Source: Candidatus Saccharimonadota bacterium (GTDB taxonomy: Bacteria > Patescibacteriota > Saccharimonadia > Saccharimonadales > JACOTW01). From it: DNA of 64,000 nucleotides. The notes under the pieces are model-generated. The model saw nothing but the letters and a program-made list of their open reading frames with translations. It searched no databases and had not been told where the DNA came from. How positions within the stretch are numbered: position 1 is the first letter of the stretch; each line of letters begins with the position of its first letter. Positions 21,727 through 30,526 of this stretch are shown piece after piece. The position numbers were made by a program, and so were the translations under genes. The stretch is taken from assembly GCA_016178135.1 (NCBI GenBank), contig JACOTW010000012.1:1064-65063 (forward strand), written 5' to 3'.

Positions 21727-22689
21727 ATGGACGCTAAAAATGCATTTGAGGCTATAGAAGCAATTCGCGCTACTGTTCCTGTAGAAGATCAAGCTGGCCT
21801 AGACGCAGAGTACGCTACTCGTTTTAAAGTAATTGGTGAGGCTGTCGGTACGGTAGCTGTAGCTGAGACTGCTCCGGCTCCAGAAACCCAGCTAGAAAAG
21901 AAACTTCCAGACTTCTTAAATCCGGATATTAAACTTGGCGCTAAGGATCAACTAACCTTGATGCGGGAATTCTGGAACGACCTTGGTTATGTTGTGCCCG
22001 ACCTAAGCTCTGAACAAGAAACTCGACTTGAGGCAACTGTTGATTCAAGTTTGGGTAGCCGTGTAGTTCCTACCCCGTTGCTTGACTTGACTGGCCGAAT
22101 GCATGTAGCAGCGTCTGCTTCTGAATTATTCAAAAAGAATAGTTTCCATCCTGATTGCGAAGCACTACGGGCACCTGGTACAAGCTATACCTACGGCAAA
22201 CTAATGGCTAATCCCGAAAGCACCGTTAAAGTAGGTCGCAAGGAGTACGGCTTACGTTACAAGACGCCAGATGGTGAAATCGTTTCTCGCGCTAGTTACA
22301 TAGAATCTCTAGTGTCTGCCGGCCAAGCTGTCGTGGCGGAAGATGGAACAGTGTGGACATTCCCGGTCATGGATGTTCGTATGCGTGCTCCTAGAACTCG
22401 AAATTATGCCGCTAAACTACTCGAACGCATCAGTGCGGTTAGTACTCCCGAATCTCTCATTACTATGCAGTTACTGCACCAAGCGAACGGTACACCTAAT
22501 TCAGAATGGGAAGTAGATTTTGCCAACGAAGCCGTGTATGAATTAGACAAGAACGGTAAACTAGTTGCTCTGGTGAGCGTCACGAGCGTGGACTGGGATC
22601 CGGACAGTCGGCAGTTGTACTTGGACGACTGGGACGCGGGCAGTCGGAATGACAACTTTGGCGTTCGCGCCGAGGAGAGTGGGCTCTAA
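21727..22689 (+). CDS. Hypothetical protein
   Basis: 320-aa ORF with a good SD. No motif recognised. Confidence 0.55.
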   Translation: MDAKNAFEAIEAIRATVPVEDQAGLDAEYATRFKVIGEAVGTVAVAETAPAPETQLEKKLPDFLNPDIKLGAKDQLTLMREFWNDLGYVVPDLSSEQETRLEATVDSSLGSRVVPTPLLDLTGRMHVAASASELFKKNSFHPDCEALRAPGTSYTYGKLMANPESTVKVGRKEYGLRYKTPDGEIVSRASYIESLVSAGQAVVAEDGTVWTFPVMDVRMRAPRTRNYAAKLLERISAVSTPESLITMQLLHQANGTPNSEWEVDFANEAVYELDKNGKLVALVSVTSVDWDPDSRQLYLDDWDAGSRNDNFGVRAEESGL

Positions 22690-22995: not shown

Positions 22996-23376
22996 TTAGG
23001 CGAGTTCTACTGTTGCACCCGCTTCTTCTAGGGTTTTCTTGGCGGCTTCGGCATCTTCTTTTTTGGCTTTATCAAGCACGTTCTTTGGGGCACCATCAAC
23101 TATTGCTTTGGATTCGCCTAGTCCTAGTCCGGTGATGTCCTTGACGGCCTTGATGACGGCGACTTTTTGGGCGCCTGCATCCTTGAGCACTACATCGTAC
23201 TCGGCTTTAACATCCTCTGCTGGAGTAGCATCTGCTACGGCTGGTCCAGCTACGGCTGCCACAGCGGCGGCTGGCTCGATACCAAACTCATCTTTTAGAA
23301 TTGTTTTGAGCTCATTGACTTGTAGGACTGTTAGCCCTACTAATTGTTCTGCGAATTTTTTTAGATCTGTTGCCAT
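22996..23376 (-). CDS. rplL: 50S ribosomal protein L7/L12
   Basis: Ala-rich hinge and [21 protein letters not shown]. Confidence 0.95.
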
Positions 23377-23416
23377 TTTATTATCCTTTCGGGGTTATAT
23401 ATAAATTATTGAATGA

Positions 23417-23941
23417 TTAGATACTAGCTTTTTGCGCTAATGCGTCTAATATGCCGTGCAAATTGCCCTGGAGTCCGTTGATGATTTCATTGGTTGGCGA
23501 TGCCAGCGTAGCTAGAACTTGAGCGATAAGCTCGTTTTTGCCAGGTAGGGTTGCCAGAGCCGTAACCTCATCGGAGGATAAAAACTTACCTTCACTAGAG
23601 ATCGCACCTACAAACTTTAAGGTTGGTTGCGTTTTGGCAAATGATGCCAAGGTTTGAGCTGGTGCTACCTCATCCTGGTCATTAAAGGCGTATATAAGCA
23701 TTCCGTTCAAGGCGTCAGTCGCAACATTTTTTAGATGTTCGGTGCTTTTGATTGCCTGAATAACCAAGCGATTTTTGACGACCTTGAGTGTTGTGCTGTT
23801 ATCGCGACCTGAACGACGTAGTTCTTGCATTGCCTTAACTGGCGTACCTTGGTAGGTAGCAATTACTGTCATCTTAGAATTAACCAGTAAACCAGCAATA
23901 TCTTCAACAACTTGATTTTTTTTATCTTTTGTTAGAGCCAT
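23417..23941 (-). CDS. rplJ: 50S ribosomal protein L10
   Basis: Position upstream of rplL. 174 aa. LRRSGRDNSTTLKVVKNRL. Confidence 0.9.
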   Translation of the reverse strand: MALTKDKKNQVVEDIAGLLVNSKMTVIATYQGTPVKAMQELRRSGRDNSTTLKVVKNRLVIQAIKSTEHLKNVATDALNGMLIYAFNDQDEVAPAQTLASFAKTQPTLKFVGAISSEGKFLSSDEVTALATLPGKNELIAQVLATLASPTNEIINGLQGNLHGILDALAQKASI

Positions 23942-24128
23942 TAGATCTCCTTTGGAGTAATTTCTAATTGATAGTTATTGTTGACATGATTCGCTTCGAC
24001 CATCACGAACCTTCAGTACCAAAAAGCCTCTGCATTACCAGAGGCTAAAACATGCTCACAAACAAAAATGTCGGCTTGCACCTCGGCGACAAATCAAGCC
24101 ACTAATGGCAGTCGCTGTCTTTGGTAAC
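23942..24128 (-). promoter_or_regulatory. Long 5' UTR of rplJ, candidate L10-leader autoregulatory RNA
   Basis: About 186 nt between the predicted promoter and the rplJ ATG. Contains hairpin GCCTCTGGTAATGCAGAGGC. The assignment rests on analogy only. Confidence 0.3.
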
Positions 24129-24134
24129 ACGGTA

Positions 24135-24163
24135 ATTCTATCTGTTAAAAAGCTTTTTGTCAA
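24135..24163 (-). promoter_or_regulatory. Sigma70-type promoter candidate for rplJ-rplL
   Basis: On the minus strand: TTGACA (24163-58), 17-nt spacer, TAGAAT (24140-35). Confidence 0.55.
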
Positions 24164-24255: not shown

Positions 24256-24564
24256 ATGCATTTTTCAGAAGCAAATTTTTCACGAGTAAATATGGACGGG
24301 GAGACTCTAGGTGGATTGGTGGAGAGTGTTTTGAGCGCCGCCACTAGTACCGATAGTCCTAATATTGAAATAAATCCAGAAGACGTGCGTGTTTTGACTG
24401 GTATGCTGATCGGGAGTCCTCCTATTGACGGAAATGAAGAAATCAGGCGTTTTGATGTCGTGCAGGCTGGTTATCGTCAGAACAATAATATACCCGTCGA
24501 TGGGCATGTGAAAAGGCTTTACGACATCTGGCGTTCTCTAAAAAGAAATATCAATGAAACTTAA
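24256..24564 (+). CDS. Hypothetical protein
   Basis: 102-aa ORF. No SD or motif recognised. Confidence 0.35.
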   Translation: MHFSEANFSRVNMDGETLGGLVESVLSAATSTDSPNIEINPEDVRVLTGMLIGSPPIDGNEEIRRFDVVQAGYRQNNNIPVDGHVKRLYDIWRSLKRNINET

Positions 24565-26900
24565 CTGACTTTGGATAGTTTGAATTGAGTGTAGCGCTCG
24601 GCGGCTAGACGAGCCAACTCTGGATCTTCAGAGGTGTTTACAAATTTCATGGCTTCGGCGAGTAATGGGTGAACCTCGGCGAGTTTTTCGTGCATTTCAA
24701 GTATCAATTTTCTATAACCGGAATGTCCCTGGGGACTGGTACGGAGCTCGTGCAAGTGAAATGCTTCTCTGGCGTTGTATGTAACCTTCCAGCGCATTTT
24801 GTGGCCGAGTAGCGTGGCATATTGAGCTTCCAGCGCAAAACCGGTGGCTTGAAGTTGACTGTAAAGTTTTAGGCTAAGCTCAAAACATGCCTCGAACTGT
24901 TCTGCTAATCCGGCATCTTCTATGATGCGAGGAGTTTCATACCCATAACGTGGTGTGAGAAATTGCCACTGTAGGTCATCTACCATACGATGTCGTTGCA
25001 AATCACGAAAAATACCATAATCACAGATTAAATCCCAGCTATAATGTGCTTTTTCCAGGGCTCTACCTGGCCTATGACGTCGGTTAAGCCGTTCGCCCAC
25101 ATAAGCTTCAAAAGCTTCTTCTTTGCGTTTTATGGACCATTTTTCCACTTCATTTTTAATGTCTTTTAAAGATAGATTACTGTGCTCGTAGAGCATGTCT
25201 GGAATAAGGTTAAGCTCATTTTTGGGCCAGAAGCTGGTTAGTTGAACGGCTTCGTTTTCGCCGGCATGATTATCCGGTAGATATTTTTTAGTAACTTCTC
25301 TGACTTTGGCGTAGGTATTGGCTCGATAGGCTATCAAGGCGCCACCCCTATCAGGCTTATCGGCACGCTCCAAAAAAGTCGGTATAACCTTACGACCATG
25401 ATCGAGGAGTTTCTGGCCCGTTACTTGAGCTTCAGGAAGCTCATCACTTAAAAGGTGCATTATAAGACTTTCCAAGGCTTGACCGGAAGCATAGATGCCT
25501 ACCGTGGACTTTGTGGCTACGGGTAAAACAGGGCGAACGGCATCACAGGCTTGAGCTCTAATTGCGCTTTTCCAGGCCCCATCGCGTTCTTGTTCTGGTA
25601 CTGAAGAGTGTTCCTGAAGATGGGCAGTCAATTTGCCTGCCATTTCGGAATAAAGGTCAAATATTTGATCCATAGTGGCGTTGTACGAGGCAGTTGTTTT
25701 TTGATCCAGGTTTTGAGGCGTGTAGTATTTGTATTGCCCATGTTCGTCTTTTTGATCAAAATATATGTATCGTGTTGATTGTTCTAGGTAAGATGCCAGC
25801 CTACCCCACTCTAATTTTTTGGTCAGTAAATTAGATGCACCTTCAATCACAACGTGCTGACCGACCAGTTGCTGGACAGAATCATCGCCAAAGGCGGTTA
25901 TGACGCGCTGGAGCAATTTTTCGTCTTTACCCAGAGCACCTGCGAATTCATCCAAAATAGTAATTCGCATATCATCGCCACGTCGACTTAGTCGAGCCAT
26001 CGCCGCGGCTATCGTAATGGGGCTTAATGTGTCGTTGAAAGCGTATACATTATCAGAAGTGCTAGTAACCGCGTCAGCCAAGAATGCTTCGCCGGCGGTG
26101 GTAATTTTGTAGCCGGTATTTGTCTTTTCAACGTACGGATTATCGATTTTTAGGGATAGATTAGTGGTTTTTAGTGCTGCGTCTGCGGTTTGCTTTTTTG
26201 GTTTTGGAGGCAACAAGGGTTCTATAGTTTTCCAAAGCATGTCCTGTACGGTGGCAATGCTCATTAGCTTTTCGCTGCGTACACAGTCAATACGCAGAAA
26301 ATCTTTAGGGAATAATTGGCATAAATCATCATAAACTTCGACGGCTAATTCTAGATGATTGAGGTCTGCTTCGTGAATATCTCGTTTGTTGGTCGTATAG
26401 CTACGTTCTGCTTTTTTGTCGACTAACTGCTGGGCGATTTTTGCTGGCACGCGCAGGACTATCGATTTATCAGGTCTGGGTATGCCAAGCATTTCAAACT
26501 CAAGATTATCCAGCCAGATAAAATATCCGCGTCGCTCTTCAGCATGCCGAAATTTCGTTCCCTGATGTGCCATATTGGAACCAGTAAATCGGTTAACTAG
26601 AACAACCTTACCTTCAGTCAGTGCCTGCTTGATAGCTGGAGCCGCCTGATAGCGATCCATCGCGTAAAAAAGCGATCCGGTATAAGGTCCCACTTCTTCG
26701 GCGCTACCATACTTGCCGTTCAGGTATTCCTTTACAAAAAAACTCGACGGTTGTTCGTATTGGGGAAAATCAAAAGTAGCAACGTCGTAGCCCTCTTTTT
26801 GCAAATGATCGGCCAATAGCTGAAACTGGGTACCCTTACCGGATCCGTCAGTTCCTTCAATAACCAGCATTAGGCCGTTACGAGAAGACTCGGTTTTCAT
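24561..26900 (-). CDS. Fusion protein: dTMP kinase (N-terminal about 210 aa) plus a large ThyX-like (flavin-dependent thymidylate synthase-like) region
   Basis: LVIEGTDGSGKGTQ P-loop at the N-terminus. C-terminal FRDLQRHRMVDD and NAREAFHLHELRTSPQGHSGYR resemble the ThyX RHR and C-terminal helices. Confidence 0.65.
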   Translation of the reverse strand: MKTESSRNGLMLVIEGTDGSGKGTQFQLLADHLQKEGYDVATFDFPQYEQPSSFFVKEYLNGKYGSAEEVGPYTGSLFYAMDRYQAAPAIKQALTEGKVVLVNRFTGSNMAHQGTKFRHAEERRGYFIWLDNLEFEMLGIPRPDKSIVLRVPAKIAQQLVDKKAERSYTTNKRDIHEADLNHLELAVEVYDDLCQLFPKDFLRIDCVRSEKLMSIATVQDMLWKTIEPLLPPKPKKQTADAALKTTNLSLKIDNPYVEKTNTGYKITTAGEAFLADAVTSTSDNVYAFNDTLSPITIAAAMARLSRRGDDMRITILDEFAGALGKDEKLLQRVITAFGDDSVQQLVGQHVVIEGASNLLTKKLEWGRLASYLEQSTRYIYFDQKDEHGQYKYYTPQNLDQKTTASYNATMDQIFDLYSEMAGKLTAHLQEHSSVPEQERDGAWKSAIRAQACDAVRPVLPVATKSTVGIYASGQALESLIMHLLSDELPEAQVTGQKLLDHGRKVIPTFLERADKPDRGGALIAYRANTYAKVREVTKKYLPDNHAGENEAVQLTSFWPKNELNLIPDMLYEHSNLSLKDIKNEVEKWSIKRKEEAFEAYVGERLNRRHRPGRALEKAHYSWDLICDYGIFRDLQRHRMVDDLQWQFLTPRYGYETPRIIEDAGLAEQFEACFELSLKLYSQLQATGFALEAQYATLLGHKMRWKVTYNAREAFHLHELRTSPQGHSGYRKLILEMHEKLAEVHPLLAEAMKFVNTSEDPELARLAAERYTQFKLSKVS

Positions 26901-27610
26901 AGTGCTTTTAAACCTTTTATCGTCCCCGGTAGAGCACGCTTGTCTTTATAGGCTCGCGGCAATAGCATTTCTGGCTGCCAGTTTTTTATAATTTCTTTGA
27001 GATTGGTTCCTGTTTGATACTTGCCACTAAAGCCATTGTGGCGGCCTTCTCCGTAACTGCCATCAACAGGTCCGGTTTCCAGAAAAACAGCTTGTGCTAT
27101 ACGTTCACCGACCGGTAAAAGCACGGTTTCGTGTTCGTTCAAATTATAAATTTCCAACGTTAAGCGATTAATGTAGCCTGGTTCAACCCAGCCGGCATCA
27201 AAACAAACAGCTATACCATTTCTGCCCCAGCTGGATCGGGATTTGACCTCGTAAGCTCCGGGTGGTTTAATCCCAAAAAATTCATGGGTGTGGGCCAAAA
27301 TTCGTTCGCCTGGACGCAGTGGAATTATAGGATGATTCGGAGGTATATTCTCTAATAATTCTACGCCATTATCGGTACACCAATCCTGATGCGGTATAGC
27401 TTGGTGAACTTCACCGAAATACCGATCCACATCATTTTCATCAAATGGATTGTAGACGTAACCCCTCTTGGCTTGCCCTGTGCGGTAATAGTAGTAGCCT
27501 AGCGTGACATCAAGGCTTGCGTGGGAAATATGCTTAGGATTGAATGGCGTGCAAACAATATGACCTTCCTCTATGGCCTGACGAATTTGAATATTGCTGT
27601 AAACTCCCAT
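26897..27610 (-). CDS. dcd: dCTP deaminase / dUTPase-superfamily protein
   Basis: SLDVTLG, SSWGRNGI, DAGWVEPGYINRLTLEIYN. Confidence 0.7.
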   Translation of the reverse strand: MGVYSNIQIRQAIEEGHIVCTPFNPKHISHASLDVTLGYYYYRTGQAKRGYVYNPFDENDVDRYFGEVHQAIPHQDWCTDNGVELLENIPPNHPIIPLRPGERILAHTHEFFGIKPPGAYEVKSRSSWGRNGIAVCFDAGWVEPGYINRLTLEIYNLNEHETVLLPVGERIAQAVFLETGPVDGSYGEGRHNGFSGKYQTGTNLKEIIKNWQPEMLLPRAYKDKRALPGTIKGLKAL

Positions 27611-27873: not shown

Positions 27874-28875
27874 CTATATACCGGCTGTAGATACTGGAAT
27901 ACTTGGACCCATAGAGGTAGTAACGTACAGGCTTTTTAGGTAGATGCCTTTTAGGCCAGTAGGTTTGGCGGACTTAATGCTAGCCATCACTGTTTCGGCA
28001 TTTTGAGCTAATTTTTCTTTGCCAAAACTTACTTTTCCAATACCAAGATGAATTATGCCAGTGCCATCAACGCGATATTCAACGCGTCCAGCCTTGGCCT
28101 CTTTCACTGCCTTTGCTACGTCGGTGGTTACAGTACCACTTTTAGGGTTTGGCATCAGACCTTTAGGCCCAAGAATACGCGCGTATTTACCCAACTTGGC
28201 CATTACTTTAGGTGTGGCGATTAATACGTCAAAATCCATAGTTCCTTTATCTAGCTGTTGAAGGAATTCTTCACTACCAGCAATGTCGGCACCAGCCTTC
28301 TTGGCGGCTGTTACATCGTTTGCCTCACCAAATACGGCGATGCGGATATTTTTACCCGTACCAGCAGGCAAAGTAACGGTTCCGCGAATATTTTGATCTG
28401 CTTGCTTAGGATCAACACCTAGTCGTATGTGTAATTCGACAGTGGCATCGAATTTAGCAGGATTGGTTATGGTAGCTAATTCAAGAGCTTCCGGCAGTTC
28501 ATATAATTTATCTTCGATAATTTGATCATGTAGCTTTCTATAATTTTTGCTACGGCGTTCTAGGCGTGTGCGGGGTTTCTTTTGTGCTGGTTTTATTGTT
28601 GCTTTTGCCTCAACTGTTTTACGCTCTTCTTTCTCTTGCTTGGCTACCGTTTCTTGGATGGCTTTAATACTTCTTTTGCCTGATTTCGCGAGTGGCTTAT
28701 CGGTCGTAGCGGAGGGCTTACTGGACTGACTCAAAGCTCCTTCATCTCTACTGGACTTAATAACCTCGGGTGCCACTTCTTTGATTGTGGTTGATGTCTT
28801 TTTCTTGACGGCGGTTGTTGGTAGCTTACTTTTTACTTTTTTTTCGGTCATGTGCTTTATCCTTTCGTGGTTCAA
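27874..28875 (-). CDS. rplA: 50S ribosomal protein L1 with an about 105-aa Lys/Thr/Ala-rich N-terminal extension
   Basis: FDATVELHIRLGVDPKQADQNIRGTV and the C-terminal L1 core. Confidence 0.9.
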   Translation of the reverse strand: MNHERIKHMTEKKVKSKLPTTAVKKKTSTTIKEVAPEVIKSSRDEGALSQSSKPSATTDKPLAKSGKRSIKAIQETVAKQEKEERKTVEAKATIKPAQKKPRTRLERRSKNYRKLHDQIIEDKLYELPEALELATITNPAKFDATVELHIRLGVDPKQADQNIRGTVTLPAGTGKNIRIAVFGEANDVTAAKKAGADIAGSEEFLQQLDKGTMDFDVLIATPKVMAKLGKYARILGPKGLMPNPKSGTVTTDVAKAVKEAKAGRVEYRVDGTGIIHLGIGKVSFGKEKLAQNAETVMASIKSAKPTGLKGIYLKSLYVTTSMGPSIPVSTAGI

Positions 28876-28916
28876 GCCTTGATCGTTTATAGATCAAGTC
28901 CCACAAAATTAAATTA

Positions 28917-29342
28917 TTATTCTATTTCTACGCCCATACTTCGGGCAGTACCGGCAACTTGCTTGATGATTGATTCGATATTATCGGTATTCATGTCGCG
29001 GGCTTTTGTTTCGGCAATTGCACGCAGATCGTTTTGGTTAAGTTTTTTGCTAATTTTTTCGCTGTTGGGTTTTCCTGAACCTTTTTGAATACCTAAAGCC
29101 TTGCGGATCAGGTCGTCAGTTGGTGTGCCAACAAAGCGCCAATTCATAGTACGGTCTTCGTAAATGATTATATGAACCGTCAGGTCTTGACCCATCTGTT
29201 CCTTGGTAGCTTCATTAAATGGATTGATAAAATCCATCATATTTACGCCGTATTGTCCCAGCGTACTACCAACTGGCGGAGCCGCACTGGCTTGCCCGCC
29301 CTTAATTTTTATTTTCAAATTTGCTTTGATTGCTTTAGCCAC
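28917..29342 (-). CDS. rplK: 50S ribosomal protein L11
   Basis: IKGGQASAAPPVGSTLGQYGVNMMDF. Confidence 0.95.
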   Translation of the reverse strand: MAKAIKANLKIKIKGGQASAAPPVGSTLGQYGVNMMDFINPFNEATKEQMGQDLTVHIIIYEDRTMNWRFVGTPTDDLIRKALGIQKGSGKPNSEKISKKLNQNDLRAIAETKARDMNTDNIESIIKQVAGTARSMGVEIE

Positions 29343-29479: not shown

Positions 29480-30526
29480 CTATATATCACCTCTGTTGTA
29501 CAGTCCTTCTTTGTGAAGTTTTGATCGTAAGTTACTTAGTCCCTTATTAAGAGTCTTACGGACTTCAGCGATATTGATCCCTAGTTTATCTGCTATTTCT
29601 TGTTGTTTCATTTTTTCTGTGCCGTCAAGTCCATAGAATAATTTGAATATTGTCATGGAGTTTTCTCCTAAGTCTGCTATTAGTTTGAGTACTATAGCGG
29701 TACTTTCGTCTTGAAGTACTCGTTCTTCAGGTCCGATGTTATTATCTGGCAAAGTGTCGCCAAACTCTACAGTGGCACCAGACTCACCAATAGAGTAATT
29801 CAGACTCATTGGCATACTGATTAGTTTTAGTCTGCGCATATCTGGTGTTAAATTGTTAGGACCATCGCTATATCGGATGGCTTGTCGTAACTCTTCCGAT
29901 ACTCCATCCGGTAGCCTGATTATGGATGCGGTGCTATATATATCTCTAACGATTGATTGACGAATCCAAGCGATGGCATAAGTGGAAAATTTGAAACCCT
30001 TTTCCCATCTGAATTTATCGACAGCGTGTTCTAGACCAAGGTTGCCGGCCTGGATTAAGTCCAGTAATTCCTTGCCTGGTGGCGTATGGTTATTGTAGGT
30101 TCTTGCTATTTTTATAACCAGTCGTAGATTTGACAATATGAACACCTCTTTGGCCCGAGCTCCGGTATCTATAATATCCTTGGTGCTGACTGAATGTTCC
30201 GTTGATGTTGTTTGTAGTCGTGCCTGGGTAATTCGGCCATATTCTATGAGCTGAGCTAGTGCTATCTCCTCGTCTTTTTCCAATAAAGGGTATTGACCTA
30301 CTTCATTTAGGTATAATTGAGTGGTGTCACTGATGTCACCTGTCGGGCTCCTTTTGACTGGTTGGCGACGGTCATAAATGTCTAAAAGCACGGCCTGATT
30401 GTCGATATAGTTAAGTTCCTCGGCGTTGGCTACCATTAAATTGGCTAGGGCAGCCACGACAAAATGGGCTTCTGCCGTATCGAGCATTTCCGGGCGTGTT
30501 TCTGGTCGAGACTCCGCGACTACCAT
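29480..30526 (-). CDS. Sigma-70 family RNA polymerase sigma factor (regions 1.2-4)
   Basis: YLNEVGQYPLL, NLRLVIKIARTY, DLIQAGNLGLEHAVDKFRWEKGFKFSTYAIAWIRQSI, and a C-terminal HTH QQEIADKLGINIAEVRK. Confidence 0.85.
   Translation of the reverse strand: MVVAESRPETRPEMLDTAEAHFVVAALANLMVANAEELNYIDNQAVLLDIYDRRQPVKRSPTGDISDTTQLYLNEVGQYPLLEKDEEIALAQLIEYGRITQARLQTTSTEHSVSTKDIIDTGARAKEVFILSNLRLVIKIARTYNNHTPPGKELLDLIQAGNLGLEHAVDKFRWEKGFKFSTYAIAWIRQSIVRDIYSTASIIRLPDGVSEELRQAIRYSDGPNNLTPDMRRLKLISMPMSLNYSIGESGATVEFGDTLPDNNIGPEERVLQDESTAIVLKLIADLGENSMTIFKLFYGLDGTEKMKQQEIADKLGINIAEVRKTLNKGLSNLRSKLHKEGLYNRGDI

What the first reader, a model, noticed from the sequence alone, without database searches (positions are those of the whole stretch)
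24561..27610. Fused dTMP kinase / ThyX-like protein translationally coupled to a dCTP deaminase: a compact dTTP module with an atypical ThyX motif
- The 779-aa ORF starts with a complete thymidylate kinase (LVIEGTDGSGKGTQ...).
- It continues into about 540 aa with ThyX-like elements (…LSRRGDDMRI…, FRDLQRHRMVDDLQWQ, NAREAFHLHELRTSPQGHSGYR).
- The canonical ThyX signature RHRx7S is altered here: RHR-MVDDLQW-Q, with Gln in place of Ser.
- The region is about twice the length of a ThyX monomer, which suggests a tandem or pseudo-dimeric arrangement.
- The dcd-like gene overlaps its start by 4 nt (26897..26900).
- Fusion of consecutive pathway steps (dUMP to dTMP to dTDP) is unusual.
Basis: partly seen in the sequence, partly recalled or inferred. 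Interest (0 to 1): 0.55.

Follow-up and report, generated by a model that had tools for sequence, protein, structure and literature searches.

The report
Thymidylate kinase fused to double ThyX
This Saccharibacteria gene joins a thymidylate kinase to a tandemly duplicated flavin-dependent thymidylate synthase whose catalytic residues are split between the two copies; the fusion is real and common in this lineage, but I found no paper describing it.

Summary
A 779-aa ORF (24561..26900, minus strand) overlaps an upstream dCTP-deaminase gene by ATGA.

- **Domains.** Residues 11-232 are a Mycobacterium-type dTMP kinase, followed by a disordered linker and two complete ThyX (Thy1) domains. Each ThyX half passes Pfam's cut-off on its own, and half 2 modelled alone superposes on T. 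maritima ThyX (TM 0.75).
- **The "RHR..Q" motif is not a Ser-to-Gln oddity of this gene.** It is the consensus of a very large "long ThyX" family, found stand-alone at about 530 aa in Acidimicrobiia and fused to Tmk in Saccharimonadia.
- **The canonical motif is split.** Half 1 keeps R-x7-S-x-R-Y and the R147 equivalent, which hold dUMP. Half 2 keeps RHR, NAR and the catalytic R174 equivalent, which hold FAD. This predicts a dimer of pseudo-dimers with two active sites, not four (inferred, not shown).
- **The fusion is not an artefact.** More than 120 protein clusters at 71-78% identity share the architecture. About 45 genomes share the order rplKA-dcd-fusion-rplJL. Unfused tmk plus thyX neighbours and a Dcd-Tmk-ThyX triple fusion also exist.
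- **A contrast clade.** Lineages carrying thyA, folA and a dCMP deaminase at this locus have a decayed ThyX domain.

Databases already name the protein, but I found no literature on it. Verdict: a new variant of a known kind, of moderate interest.

The parts
26897..27610 (-). dcd: dCTP deaminase-family gene (237 aa), with RSSWGR at aa 125, GWVEPG at aa 140 and TLE at aa 151
   Evidence: Pfam DCD 1e-30. TIGR02274 scores 85.6 bits, below its 92.8 cut-off. The nearest solved structures are 4xjc, 2qxx and 1ogh; 1ogh is deposited as a bifunctional deaminase/diphosphatase.
26897..26900 (-). ATGA overlap: the dcd stop codon (TGA) overlaps the start codon (ATG) of the fusion gene
   Evidence: Sequence read directly. 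The same 4-nt overlap occurs in a 75%-identical relative, L001. The two genes are merged into one ORF in P0436/L084.
24561..26900 (-). tmk~thyX fusion gene, 779 aa plus stop codon
26205..26870 (-). dTMP kinase domain (aa 11-232), Mycobacterium-like type; D18, K22 (P-loop), R83, N103-R104-F105, N109
   Evidence: Pfam PF02223 7.6e-19. phmmer to M. tuberculosis TMPK 1g3u gives 5e-19, with a residue alignment. The AF2 model against 1g3u gives TM 0.83 normalised to the target.
26148..26192 (-). disordered linker (aa 237-251)
   Evidence: pLDDT below 50 in the AF2 model
25311..26147 (-). ThyX half 1 (aa 252-530). It keeps the dUMP-holding ('subunit C') residues and has lost the RH of RHR, the NAR Arg and the R174 equivalent
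   Evidence: Alone it scores 63.9 bits against Pfam Thy1, covering profile positions 9-191 of 191. The family profile matches M. tuberculosis ThyX 3gwc at 5e-13 over this half.
25767..25802 (-). Half-1 remnant of the ThyX motif: R367-LASYLEQ-S375-T-R377-Y378, preceded by W365-G366 in place of R-H
   Evidence: The alignment to M. tuberculosis ThyX pairs these with R97, S105, R107 and Y108. Conservation: R367 in 65/75, S375 in 62/75, R377 in 61/75.
25533..25535 (-). R456, equivalent to M. tuberculosis R172 (T. maritima R147 from my own knowledge)
   Evidence: alignment; conserved in 62/75
24564..25310 (-). ThyX half 2 (aa 531-779). It keeps the FAD-binding and catalytic Arg residues and has lost the S88/R90 segment and the R147 equivalent (Q693)
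   Evidence: Alone it scores 63.2 bits against Pfam Thy1. An AF2 model of aa 540-779 has pLDDT 90.1. All top 50 Foldseek PDB hits are ThyX or PolB, the best being T. maritima 1o27 at TM 0.68/0.75.
24963..24995 (-). R636-H637-R638-MVDDLQW-Q646: the RHR motif of half 2, ending in the family-conserved W-Q
24741..24776 (-). N709-A-R711 ... R720: equivalents of T. maritima N163-A-R165 and the catalytic R174
   Evidence: Alignment to T. maritima and H. pylori ThyX. Conservation: N in 64/75, R711 in 67/75, R720 in 59/75.
24011..24142 (-). L10 leader RNA upstream of rplJ. It marks the downstream boundary of the inserted dcd-tmk~thyX pair
   Evidence: Rfam RF00557 at 51 bits (gathering score 44), E 3.6e-6. 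A promoter-like site TTGACA-17-TAGAAT lies at 24163..24135.
27874..29342 (-). rplK-rplA, the upstream flank
   Evidence: Pfam Ribosomal_L11 and Ribosomal_L1
22996..23941 (-). rplJ-rplL, the downstream flank
   Evidence: Pfam Ribosomal_L10 and Ribosomal_L12

Best explanation
The gene encodes a bifunctional enzyme. An N-terminal Mycobacterium-type dTMP kinase is tethered by a flexible linker of about 15 residues to a 'long ThyX'. Long ThyX is a flavin-dependent thymidylate synthase in which two ThyX domains, produced by an ancient tandem duplication, sit on one chain.

**How the synthase is built (inferred).** The two halves have lost complementary sets of active-site residues. Half 2 supplies the FAD-binding RHR and NAR motifs and the catalytic Arg (R720, equivalent to T. 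maritima R174). Half 1 supplies the loop that holds dUMP: E373, S375, R377, Y378 and R456. Two chains would therefore assemble into a pseudo-tetramer with two complete active sites instead of four. That gives one synthase site per kinase domain.

**How the pathway runs (inferred).** The translationally coupled upstream dCTP deaminase makes dUTP or dUMP. ThyX methylates dUMP to dTMP. The tethered kinase converts dTMP to dTDP. The pair forms a self-contained thymidylate module inserted between rplKA and the L10 leader of rplJL in Saccharimonadia.

**Shown:** domain identities, two ThyX folds, the residue retention pattern, conservation of the architecture and the synteny.
**Inferred:** oligomeric state, number of active sites, enzymatic activities and any substrate channelling.
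For: **Domain identities**
- Tmk: Pfam 7.6e-19, 1g3u 5e-19, TM 0.83.
- Each ThyX half alone passes Pfam Thy1 at 63.9 and 63.2 bits against a cut-off of 24.8.
- The half-2 model gives TM 0.75 to T. maritima ThyX.
- Half 1 of the family profile hits M. tuberculosis ThyX at 5e-13, and half 2 hits H. pylori and T. maritima ThyX.
- The two halves align colinearly by hhalign and show the same order of secondary-structure elements.

**Complementary residue retention**
- The canonical roles of subunits A, B and C come from PMC6514825.
- The window protein carries all 26 invariant residues of 55 stand-alone long ThyX sequences.

**Fusion and coupling**
- More than 120 clusters share the architecture.
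- 46 of 54 Saccharimonadia loci have dcd next to the fusion, nearly all between rplA and rplJ.
- Unfused adjacent tmk and thyX occur in L051 and L052.
- A Dcd-Tmk-ThyX single ORF exists, P0436.

**Contrast showing what a dead domain looks like**
- 18 related clusters have lost every ThyX motif but keep the Tmk P-loop.
- In 4 of 4 contexts read, these sit next to thyA, folA and a dCMP deaminase, with no dcd.
Against: - No activity, cofactor or oligomer data exist for any member that I could find.
- The protein falls below NCBIfam equivalog cut-offs for thyX (54.7 vs 87.9) and for dTMP kinase (65.3 vs 83.25; 123 vs 193).
- The Tmk DR(Y/F) motif reads N103-R-F.
- S341, equivalent to the 'subunit B' Ser71 of M. 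tuberculosis ThyX, and R367 are invariant in half 1. A simple 'half 1 plays only the C role' model does not require this.
- ThyA and FolA co-occur with motif-intact fusions in L044 and L049. So the presence of ThyA does not by itself predict decay of the ThyX domain.
- Whether the source genome has thyA, dut, tdk or a source of folate is unknown beyond this 64-kb window.
Confidence: 0.75

Rival explanations
1. Only the kinase is active. The double ThyX region is a catalytically dead scaffold (pseudoenzyme) kept for dimerisation or stability.
For: Such dead versions exist in related Saccharimonadales. They keep an intact P-loop but have lost all ThyX motifs, and JGI names them just 'dTMP kinase'. 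Neither half of the window protein has a complete canonical RHRx7S motif.
Against: The window protein keeps all 26 residues that are invariant in 55 stand-alone long ThyX sequences, and every motif that the decayed clades have lost. It also keeps the adjacent dcd. No thyA is present in the window.
Confidence: 0.05
2. The ThyX-like region is an active flavin-dependent methylase with a different substrate or product. Examples would be a UMP/dUMP methylase like PolB, or an enzyme acting on dCMP or another nucleotide.
For: The region is divergent: there is no single-sequence PDB hit, and it scores below the TIGR02170 cut-off. The ThyX-fold enzyme PolB (4p5b) is among the fold matches. The family has extra invariant residues with no canonical counterpart (NRRH-PGR at 606-613, W645-Q646, H726).
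Against: It is fused to a dTMP kinase and coupled, or even fused, to a dCTP deaminase. These are the steps immediately after and before dUMP-to-dTMP conversion. The equivalents of the dUMP-binding residues S88, R90, Y91, R147 and R174 are all retained. In four contexts read, the domain has decayed where ThyA, a DHFR and a dCMP deaminase sit beside the gene.
Confidence: 0.1
3. Both halves are catalytically competent, or the chain works as a monomer, so the site count differs from the two-site pseudo-tetramer proposed here.
For: Half 1 keeps S341 (equivalent to M. tuberculosis S71) and R367 invariant. Position 482, the R174 equivalent in half 1, is basic in many members: R in 29, K in 13 and H in 12 of 75. 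No quaternary model was possible.
Against: Half 1 lacks equivalents of R78, H79 and R165: positions 365-366 are W-G, and position 474 is Q in 51/75. Position 482 is not conserved. Half 2 lacks the S88-G-R90 segment and the R147 equivalent, with Q693 in 56/75. Canonical sites need residues from three subunits (PMC6514825).
Confidence: 0.08
4. The fusion is an artefact, caused by a missed stop codon, a frameshift or a chimeric assembly.
For: None found.
Against: The ORF is uninterrupted. The identical protein is seen on two contigs, and more than 120 clusters from independent samples have the same length and domains. The architecture recurs in about 45 species-level genomes.
Confidence: 0.01

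Closest known systems
Canonical ThyX / flavin-dependent thymidylate synthase (T. maritima TM0449, PDB 1O26; M. tuberculosis ThyX, PDB 2AF6/3GWC; Pfam PF02511)
   Same: The fold is the same: TM 0.75 for half 2, and 5e-13 at profile level for half 1. The same FAD- and dUMP-contacting residues are present when the two halves are taken together.
   Different: Canonical ThyX is a chain of about 220-250 aa that forms a homotetramer with four identical sites, and it has an intact RHRx7S motif in every chain (PMC6514825). Here two diverged copies sit on one chain and the motif is split: WGR-x7-S-x-RY in half 1, and RHR...WQ in half 2. The predicted assembly is a dimer with two sites. The protein scores below the TIGR02170 cut-off.
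Stand-alone 'long ThyX' of Acidimicrobiia and other bacteria (for example P0303 Microthrixaceae, P0385 Acidimicrobiia, P0332 Binatia; Aquihabitans daechungensis locus L071)
   Same: The two-half architecture and the same invariant residues; 39-45% identity to the window's C-terminal 537 aa.
   Different: No Tmk domain and no adjacent dcd. These proteins carry only automatic database names, and I found no paper describing them.
Mycobacterium tuberculosis thymidylate kinase (PDB 1G3U; NCBIfam PRK07933)
   Same: This is the best sequence and fold match for aa 11-232. D9, K13, R74, R95 and N100 of the M. tuberculosis enzyme correspond to D18, K22, R83, R104 and N109.
   Different: The window domain scores below the PRK07933 cut-off (123 vs 193). 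D94 is replaced by N103 and Y103 by H112. It is fused to ThyX. Other Saccharimonadia carry a different, classical bacterial Tmk type at the same position in the fusion.
Bifunctional DHFR-TS of protozoa and plants (from my own knowledge)
   Same: Consecutive enzymes of thymidylate metabolism are fused on one chain, giving fixed stoichiometry and possibly channelling.
   Different: Unrelated folds (ThyA and DHFR) and different steps. Here the link is a disordered tether, so co-localisation is more likely than a defined channel.
Bifunctional dCTP deaminase-dUTPase (M. jannaschii, PDB 1OGH; M. tuberculosis, PDB 2QXX)
   Same: These are among the closest solved relatives of the upstream gene product. 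Such an activity would deliver dUMP directly to ThyX.
   Different: The sequence cannot tell whether the window's Dcd is mono- or bifunctional. It is 237 aa with extra N-terminal-half sequence, and it scores below the TIGR02274 cut-off.
Chlamydial ThyX (C. trachomatis; Griffin et al. 2005, J Biol Chem 280:5456; cited from memory and from reference lists)
   Same: PMC6171736 says these proteins are so divergent that they were left out of the first ThyX phylogeny. My unverified recollection is that they are about twice the usual length.
   Different: Membership in this long-ThyX family was not tested, because I had no sequence and the paper is not held. No Chlamydia genome was among the 80 best genome hits.

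Membership tests
ThyX / FDTS (Pfam PF02511 Thy1) | Match to the Thy1 profile above the gathering score | tested here: met
   The whole protein scores 121.4 bits. Half 1 alone scores 63.9 and half 2 alone 63.2, against a cut-off of 24.8.
ThyX / FDTS (NCBIfam TIGR02170 equivalog) | Score above the equivalog cut-off (87.9 bits) | tested here: not met
   54.7 bits
ThyX / FDTS | ThyX fold | tested here: met
   The half-2 model (pLDDT 90.1) gives TM 0.68/0.75 to 1o27, and all top 50 hits are ThyX or PolB. Half 1 rests on the profile alignment to 3gwc at 5e-13, and both halves show the same order of secondary-structure elements.
ThyX / FDTS | RHRx7S signature within one domain | tested here: not met
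   Half 1 reads W-G-R367-x7-S375. Half 2 reads R636-H-R638-x7-Q646. The motif is complete only when the two halves are combined.
ThyX / FDTS | Full set of FAD- and dUMP-binding residues (T. maritima R78, H79, R80, S88, R90, Y91, R147, R165, R174) | tested here: met
   All are present once, distributed over the two halves: R636, H637, R638, R711 and R720 in half 2, and S375, R377, Y378 and R456 in half 1. The spatial arrangement was not checked.
ThyX / FDTS | Homotetramer with four active sites, each built from three subunits | not testable with these tools
   Only monomer prediction is offered, and no coordinates are returned.
ThyX / FDTS | FAD-, NADPH- and CH2-THF-dependent conversion of dUMP to dTMP | not testable with these tools
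   Requires biochemistry or genetic complementation.
dTMP kinase (Pfam PF02223; TIGR00041; PRK07933) | Profile match | tested here: inconclusive
   Pfam scores 68.6 bits against a cut-off of 27, which is met. TIGR00041 scores 65.3 against 83.25, and PRK07933 scores 123.1 against 193; neither is met.
dTMP kinase | P-loop, the DR(Y/F/H) motif and TMP-binding residues | tested here: inconclusive
   The P-loop GTDGSGKGT, with D18 and K22, is present, as are R83, R104 and N109. The Asp of the DRY motif is N103, a change conserved across type-A fusions.
dTMP kinase | Fold | tested here: met
   TM 0.82-0.84 normalised to the target, against M. tuberculosis and T. thermophilus Tmk.
dCTP deaminase (Pfam PF22769; TIGR02274) - upstream gene | Profile match and catalytic motifs | tested here: inconclusive
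   Pfam DCD scores 107.3 bits against a cut-off of 27, which is met. TIGR02274 scores 85.6 against 92.8, which is not met. The RSSWGR, GWVEPG and TLE motifs are present. Mono- versus bifunctional activity cannot be decided.

The most novel reading that the evidence does not exclude
Long ThyX is an obligate asymmetric pseudo-tetramer with two active sites per dimer, produced by duplication followed by complementary loss of residues. The vestigial second pair of sites in half 1 still has invariant GDDS, E-W-G-R and S356 residues. It may have been re-used as a regulatory or second-cofactor (NADPH or folate) site.

The fused Tmk dimer then gives 1:1 coupling of synthase and kinase sites. The ThyX body has become structurally indispensable to Tmk. 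That would explain why it persists as a dead domain in lineages that carry ThyA, a DHFR and a dCMP deaminase beside the gene.
Probability: 0.25. Interest if true: 0.65.

Novelty: new variant of a known kind. Interest (0 to 1): 0.5.

Why it matters
**For ThyX enzymology.** ThyX is an antibacterial target, and its mechanism depends on active sites shared by three identical subunits. A natural single-chain version in which each half keeps only one 'role' is a ready-made asymmetric construct. It could be used to dissect which subunit contributes what, and whether half-of-sites operation suffices.

**For Saccharibacteria.** These episymbionts have about 1-Mb genomes. The compact dcd-tmk~thyX module indicates that they make their own dTTP from dCTP rather than depending fully on thymidine salvage.

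**For pseudoenzyme evolution.** Three states occur at this locus or in its neighbourhood in different lineages: an intact fusion, an intact fusion plus thyA and folA, and a decayed ThyX domain next to thyA, folA and a dCMP deaminase. This reads as a natural series of pathway replacement and pseudoenzyme formation.

Tried and rejected
- **BLASTP of half 1 against half 2** gave nothing significant (E 0.31). The duplication shows only at profile level and at fold level.
- **phmmer of the C-terminal 537 aa against PDB** found no ThyX. A family profile was needed.
- **Foldseek with the full-length model** returned only Tmk hits in the top 50, so half 2 was modelled separately.
- **The afdb50 library** was not available.
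- **The search for related loci with the 75-sequence alignment** failed because the alignment was too diverse. It worked with the half-2 alignment.
- **Literature.** Searches for ThyX with Saccharibacteria, fusion, tandem or pseudo-dimer found nothing relevant. Leduc 2004 and Griffin 2005 are not held. So I could not verify whether chlamydial ThyX belongs to this long family.
- **Model coordinates** are not exposed, so 3-D clustering of the split active-site residues was not tested.
- **A second thyX, tmk, thyA or dut in the window** was searched for and not found. This says nothing about the rest of the genome.
- **The idea that ThyA presence strictly predicts ThyX decay** was rejected. L044 and L049 have thyA and folA together with a motif-intact fusion.


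Full report
**1. Observation**

The window carries an uninterrupted 779-aa ORF at 24561..26900 on the minus strand. A 237-aa ORF at 26897..27610 lies directly upstream on the same strand. The upstream stop codon and the downstream start codon overlap as ATGA.

Pfam finds Thymidylate_kin at aa 14-208 (7.6e-19) and Thy1 with two matched stretches (5e-35) in the long ORF. It finds DCD (1e-30) in the upstream ORF.

**2. The fusion is real**

The identical protein is in NCBI as 'FAD-dependent thymidylate synthase [Candidatus Saccharibacteria bacterium]'. More than 120 clusters at 71-78% identity have the same length (768-794 aa) and the same two Pfam domains. JGI calls them 'thymidylate kinase/thymidylate synthase ThyX'.

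**3. Kinase domain**

- Residues 11-193 align to M. tuberculosis thymidylate kinase (1g3u, 5e-19). D18, K22, R83, R104 and N109 stand at the positions of D9, K13, R74, R95 and N100.
- The Asp of the DRY motif is Asn (N103-R-F), a feature shared by relatives with this type of domain.
- In the AF2 model (mean pLDDT 86.3) this domain superposes on M. tuberculosis Tmk with TM 0.83.
- It scores below the NCBIfam equivalog cut-offs.
- Residues 237-251 have pLDDT below 50, so they form a flexible linker.

**4. Two ThyX domains**

- The C-terminal 537 aa has no single-sequence PDB hit, and its halves do not match each other by BLAST.
- Scanned separately, aa 252-530 and aa 531-779 each pass Pfam Thy1, at 63.9 and 63.2 bits against a cut-off of 24.8.
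- A profile of 55 stand-alone relatives hits M. tuberculosis and Corynebacterium ThyX with its first half (5e-13). It hits H. pylori, T. maritima and PBCV-1 ThyX with its second half (half-2 profile alone).
- hhalign aligns the two halves colinearly, though weakly (E 1.2e-3).
- The model shows the same order of helices and strands twice.
- Residues 540-779 modelled alone (pLDDT 90.1, pTM 0.83) match T. maritima ThyX over the whole chain (TM 0.68/0.75). All 50 top hits are ThyX or the ThyX-fold enzyme PolB.

**5. The motif is split between the halves**

According to PMC6514825, one canonical active site is built from three subunits:

| Subunit | Contribution (M. tuberculosis numbering) |
|---|---|
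| A | RHR, which binds FAD and dUMP, and the catalytic Arg R199 |
| B | S71 and the NAR arginine R190 |
| C | R87, S105, R107 and Y108, which hold dUMP |

From my own knowledge, these correspond to T. maritima R78-H79-R80, R174, R165, S88, R90 and Y91.

The alignments map the window protein as follows.

*Half 1*
- It reads W365-G366-R367-x7-S375-T-R377-Y378, with E373 and R456 (equivalent to T. maritima R147).
- It has Q474 in place of the NAR Arg.
- It has a variable residue at the R174 position: H482 here, and R29/K13/H12 across 75 sequences.

*Half 2*
- It has R636-H637-R638, N709-A-R711 and R720.
- It lacks the S-G-R segment. HMMER treats T. maritima S88-G-R90 as an insertion and aligns W645-Q646 to Y91-S92.
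- It has Q693 at the R147 position.

Conservation counts back this pattern. The window protein carries all 26 invariant residues of the stand-alone family.

Half of them have RHR-x6-Q rather than x7. So it is a family feature and not a Ser-to-Gln substitution in this gene.

Half 2 keeps the A- and B-role residues and half 1 keeps the C-role residues. In a 222 tetramer of two chains, only the two sites whose A and B subunits are half 2 would therefore be complete. This two-site model is an inference. I could not obtain coordinates or a multimer model. The invariance of S341 and R367 in half 1 is not explained by it.

**6. Family and distribution**

- An exhaustive search with the C-terminal region finds 3430 representatives at the 50%-identity level (E <= 1e-3) and 690 at E <= 1e-30. 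They include stand-alone forms of 505-560 aa and fused forms of 720-800 aa.
- Named stand-alone members come from Acidimicrobiia, Microthrixaceae and Binatia.
- The genome scan adds an Aquihabitans daechungensis chromosome, a Parcubacteria MAG (fused) and one archaeal MAG.
- In 46 of 54 Saccharimonadia loci dcd lies beside the fusion. The order rplK-rplA-(0-3 genes)-dcd-fusion-...-rplJ-rplL recurs.
- L051 and L052 have separate adjacent tmk and long thyX genes, which is a plausible pre-fusion state.
- P0436 is a single 1047-aa Dcd-Tmk-ThyX ORF at the same place.
- Two unrelated Tmk types are found fused to ThyX regions that are all 67-76% identical to the window's. Type A, as here, is 59-78% identical to the window's Tmk. 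Type B is only 25-30% identical.

**7. Local context**

An L10 leader RNA (RF00557, 51 bits) lies at 24011..24142. An 11-of-12 match to the sigma-70 promoter consensus lies just upstream of it. Both sit between the fusion gene and rplJ. The dcd-fusion pair is therefore an insertion between the rplKA and rplJL units of the classic secE-nusG-rplKAJL cluster.

The window holds no thyA, no second thyX or tmk, and no separate dut.

**8. A natural contrast**

Eighteen clusters related to P0148 keep the Tmk P-loop but have lost every ThyX motif. In all four contexts read, they are not preceded by dcd. They lie next to genes for a DHFR, a HIT-dCMP deaminase fusion and ThyA, and in L086 they are still upstream of rplJ-rplL.

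This shows what a dead ThyX domain looks like, and it argues that the window's intact one is under selection for catalysis.

The picture is not all-or-none:
- L044 and L049 combine thyA and folA with motif-intact fusions.
- P0152 has a decayed ThyX domain but keeps dcd.

**9. Mechanism proposed**

- Dcd makes dUTP or dUMP. Which one is undecided; among the nearest solved relatives, 1ogh is deposited as a bifunctional deaminase/diphosphatase.
- The two-site long ThyX methylates dUMP.
- The tethered Tmk phosphorylates dTMP.
- A dimer would provide two kinase domains for two synthase sites. Tmk enzymes are usually dimers (my own knowledge), so both parts could dimerise together.
- The disordered linker argues for proximity rather than a defined channel.

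**10. Comparison with what is known, and novelty**

The parts are known families, and the databases already give this protein automatic names. I found no paper describing a tandem ThyX, a split ThyX motif or a Tmk-ThyX fusion.

Chlamydial ThyX is reported as too divergent for the first phylogeny (PMC6171736). It may belong to this long family. I could not test that.

I rate the finding as a new variant of a known kind, of moderate interest.

Noticed in passing
L082 6001-8202, L083 6001-8262, L085 7001-9253, L086 7001-9214 (proteins P0148, P0410, P0421, P0163): These are Saccharimonadales Tmk fusions whose double-ThyX region has lost all catalytic motifs while the Tmk P-loop is intact. In all four loci, genes for ThyA, a HIT-dCMP deaminase fusion and a DHFR lie divergently upstream, and dcd is absent. 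This looks like pathway replacement followed by pseudoenzyme formation.
   Followed up: partly
L044 763-2812 and L049 699-2724: In these two loci a thyA-folA cassette, plus a weak Dcd/Dut-like ORF, lies between rplA and a motif-intact Tmk-ThyX fusion. This is a possible intermediate state in which both thymidylate synthases are present.
   Followed up: partly
L087 5681-8609 (P0152): A fusion with type-B Tmk and a decayed ThyX domain still has dcd overlapping its start, between rplA and rplJ. ThyX decay has therefore happened at least twice, and not always together with loss of dcd.
   Followed up: no
L084 5001-8144 (P0436, 1047 aa): A single ORF joins Dcd, Tmk and the double ThyX, and it lies between rplA and rplJ. 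It is seen on two contigs.
   Followed up: partly
L005, L007, L011, L015, L017, L019, L021, L023 and others, compared with L002, L003, L009 and the window: Two different Tmk domain types are fused to nearly identical ThyX regions in related genomes. One is Mycobacterium-like (IEGTDGSGKGTQ...NRFTGSN). The other is classical (LEGPEGVGKTTQ...REPDSQSDLTAR...VDRNY) and is only 25-30% identical to the window's Tmk. This means either a domain swap or two independent fusions. L008 also has an extra stand-alone Tmk ORF at 1798-2466.
   Followed up: partly
L051 2905-5627 and L052 3014-5627: In these loci tmk and long thyX are separate adjacent genes. L051 has the order dcd-tmk-thyX. This is the likely unfused precursor arrangement.
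   Followed up: no
window 24011-24142 (-) and 24135-24163 (-): An L10 leader RNA (RF00557, 51 bits) lies here. A near-consensus promoter-like site (TTGACA-17-TAGAAT) sits just upstream of it, ahead of rplJ.
   Followed up: no
window 27874-28875 (-): Ribosomal protein L1 is 333 aa. The Pfam L1 domain starts only at aa 139, after a Lys/Ala/Thr-rich N-terminal extension. The relative in L001 has a similar length (335 aa).
   Followed up: no
window 29480-30526 (-): A sigma-70 family gene (regions 1.2, 2 and 4) is inserted between nusG and rplK in the secE-nusG-rplKAJL cluster.
   Followed up: no
window 24256-24564 (+) and 21727-22689 (+): Two ORFs, of 102 aa and 320 aa, have no Pfam match. The first converges on the 3' end of the fusion gene and overlaps it by 4 nt. 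Whether either is a real gene is unknown.
   Followed up: no
L014, L060, L073: Some contig labels look inconsistent with their content. L014 is labelled 'Limnocylindria' but carries a Saccharimonadia-type rplKA-dcd-fusion locus. L060 and L073 are labelled Bifidobacterium MAGs but carry a stand-alone long ThyX whose half 2 is 46-47% identical to the window's, like those of the Acidimicrobiia loci. These are probably binning errors.
   Followed up: no
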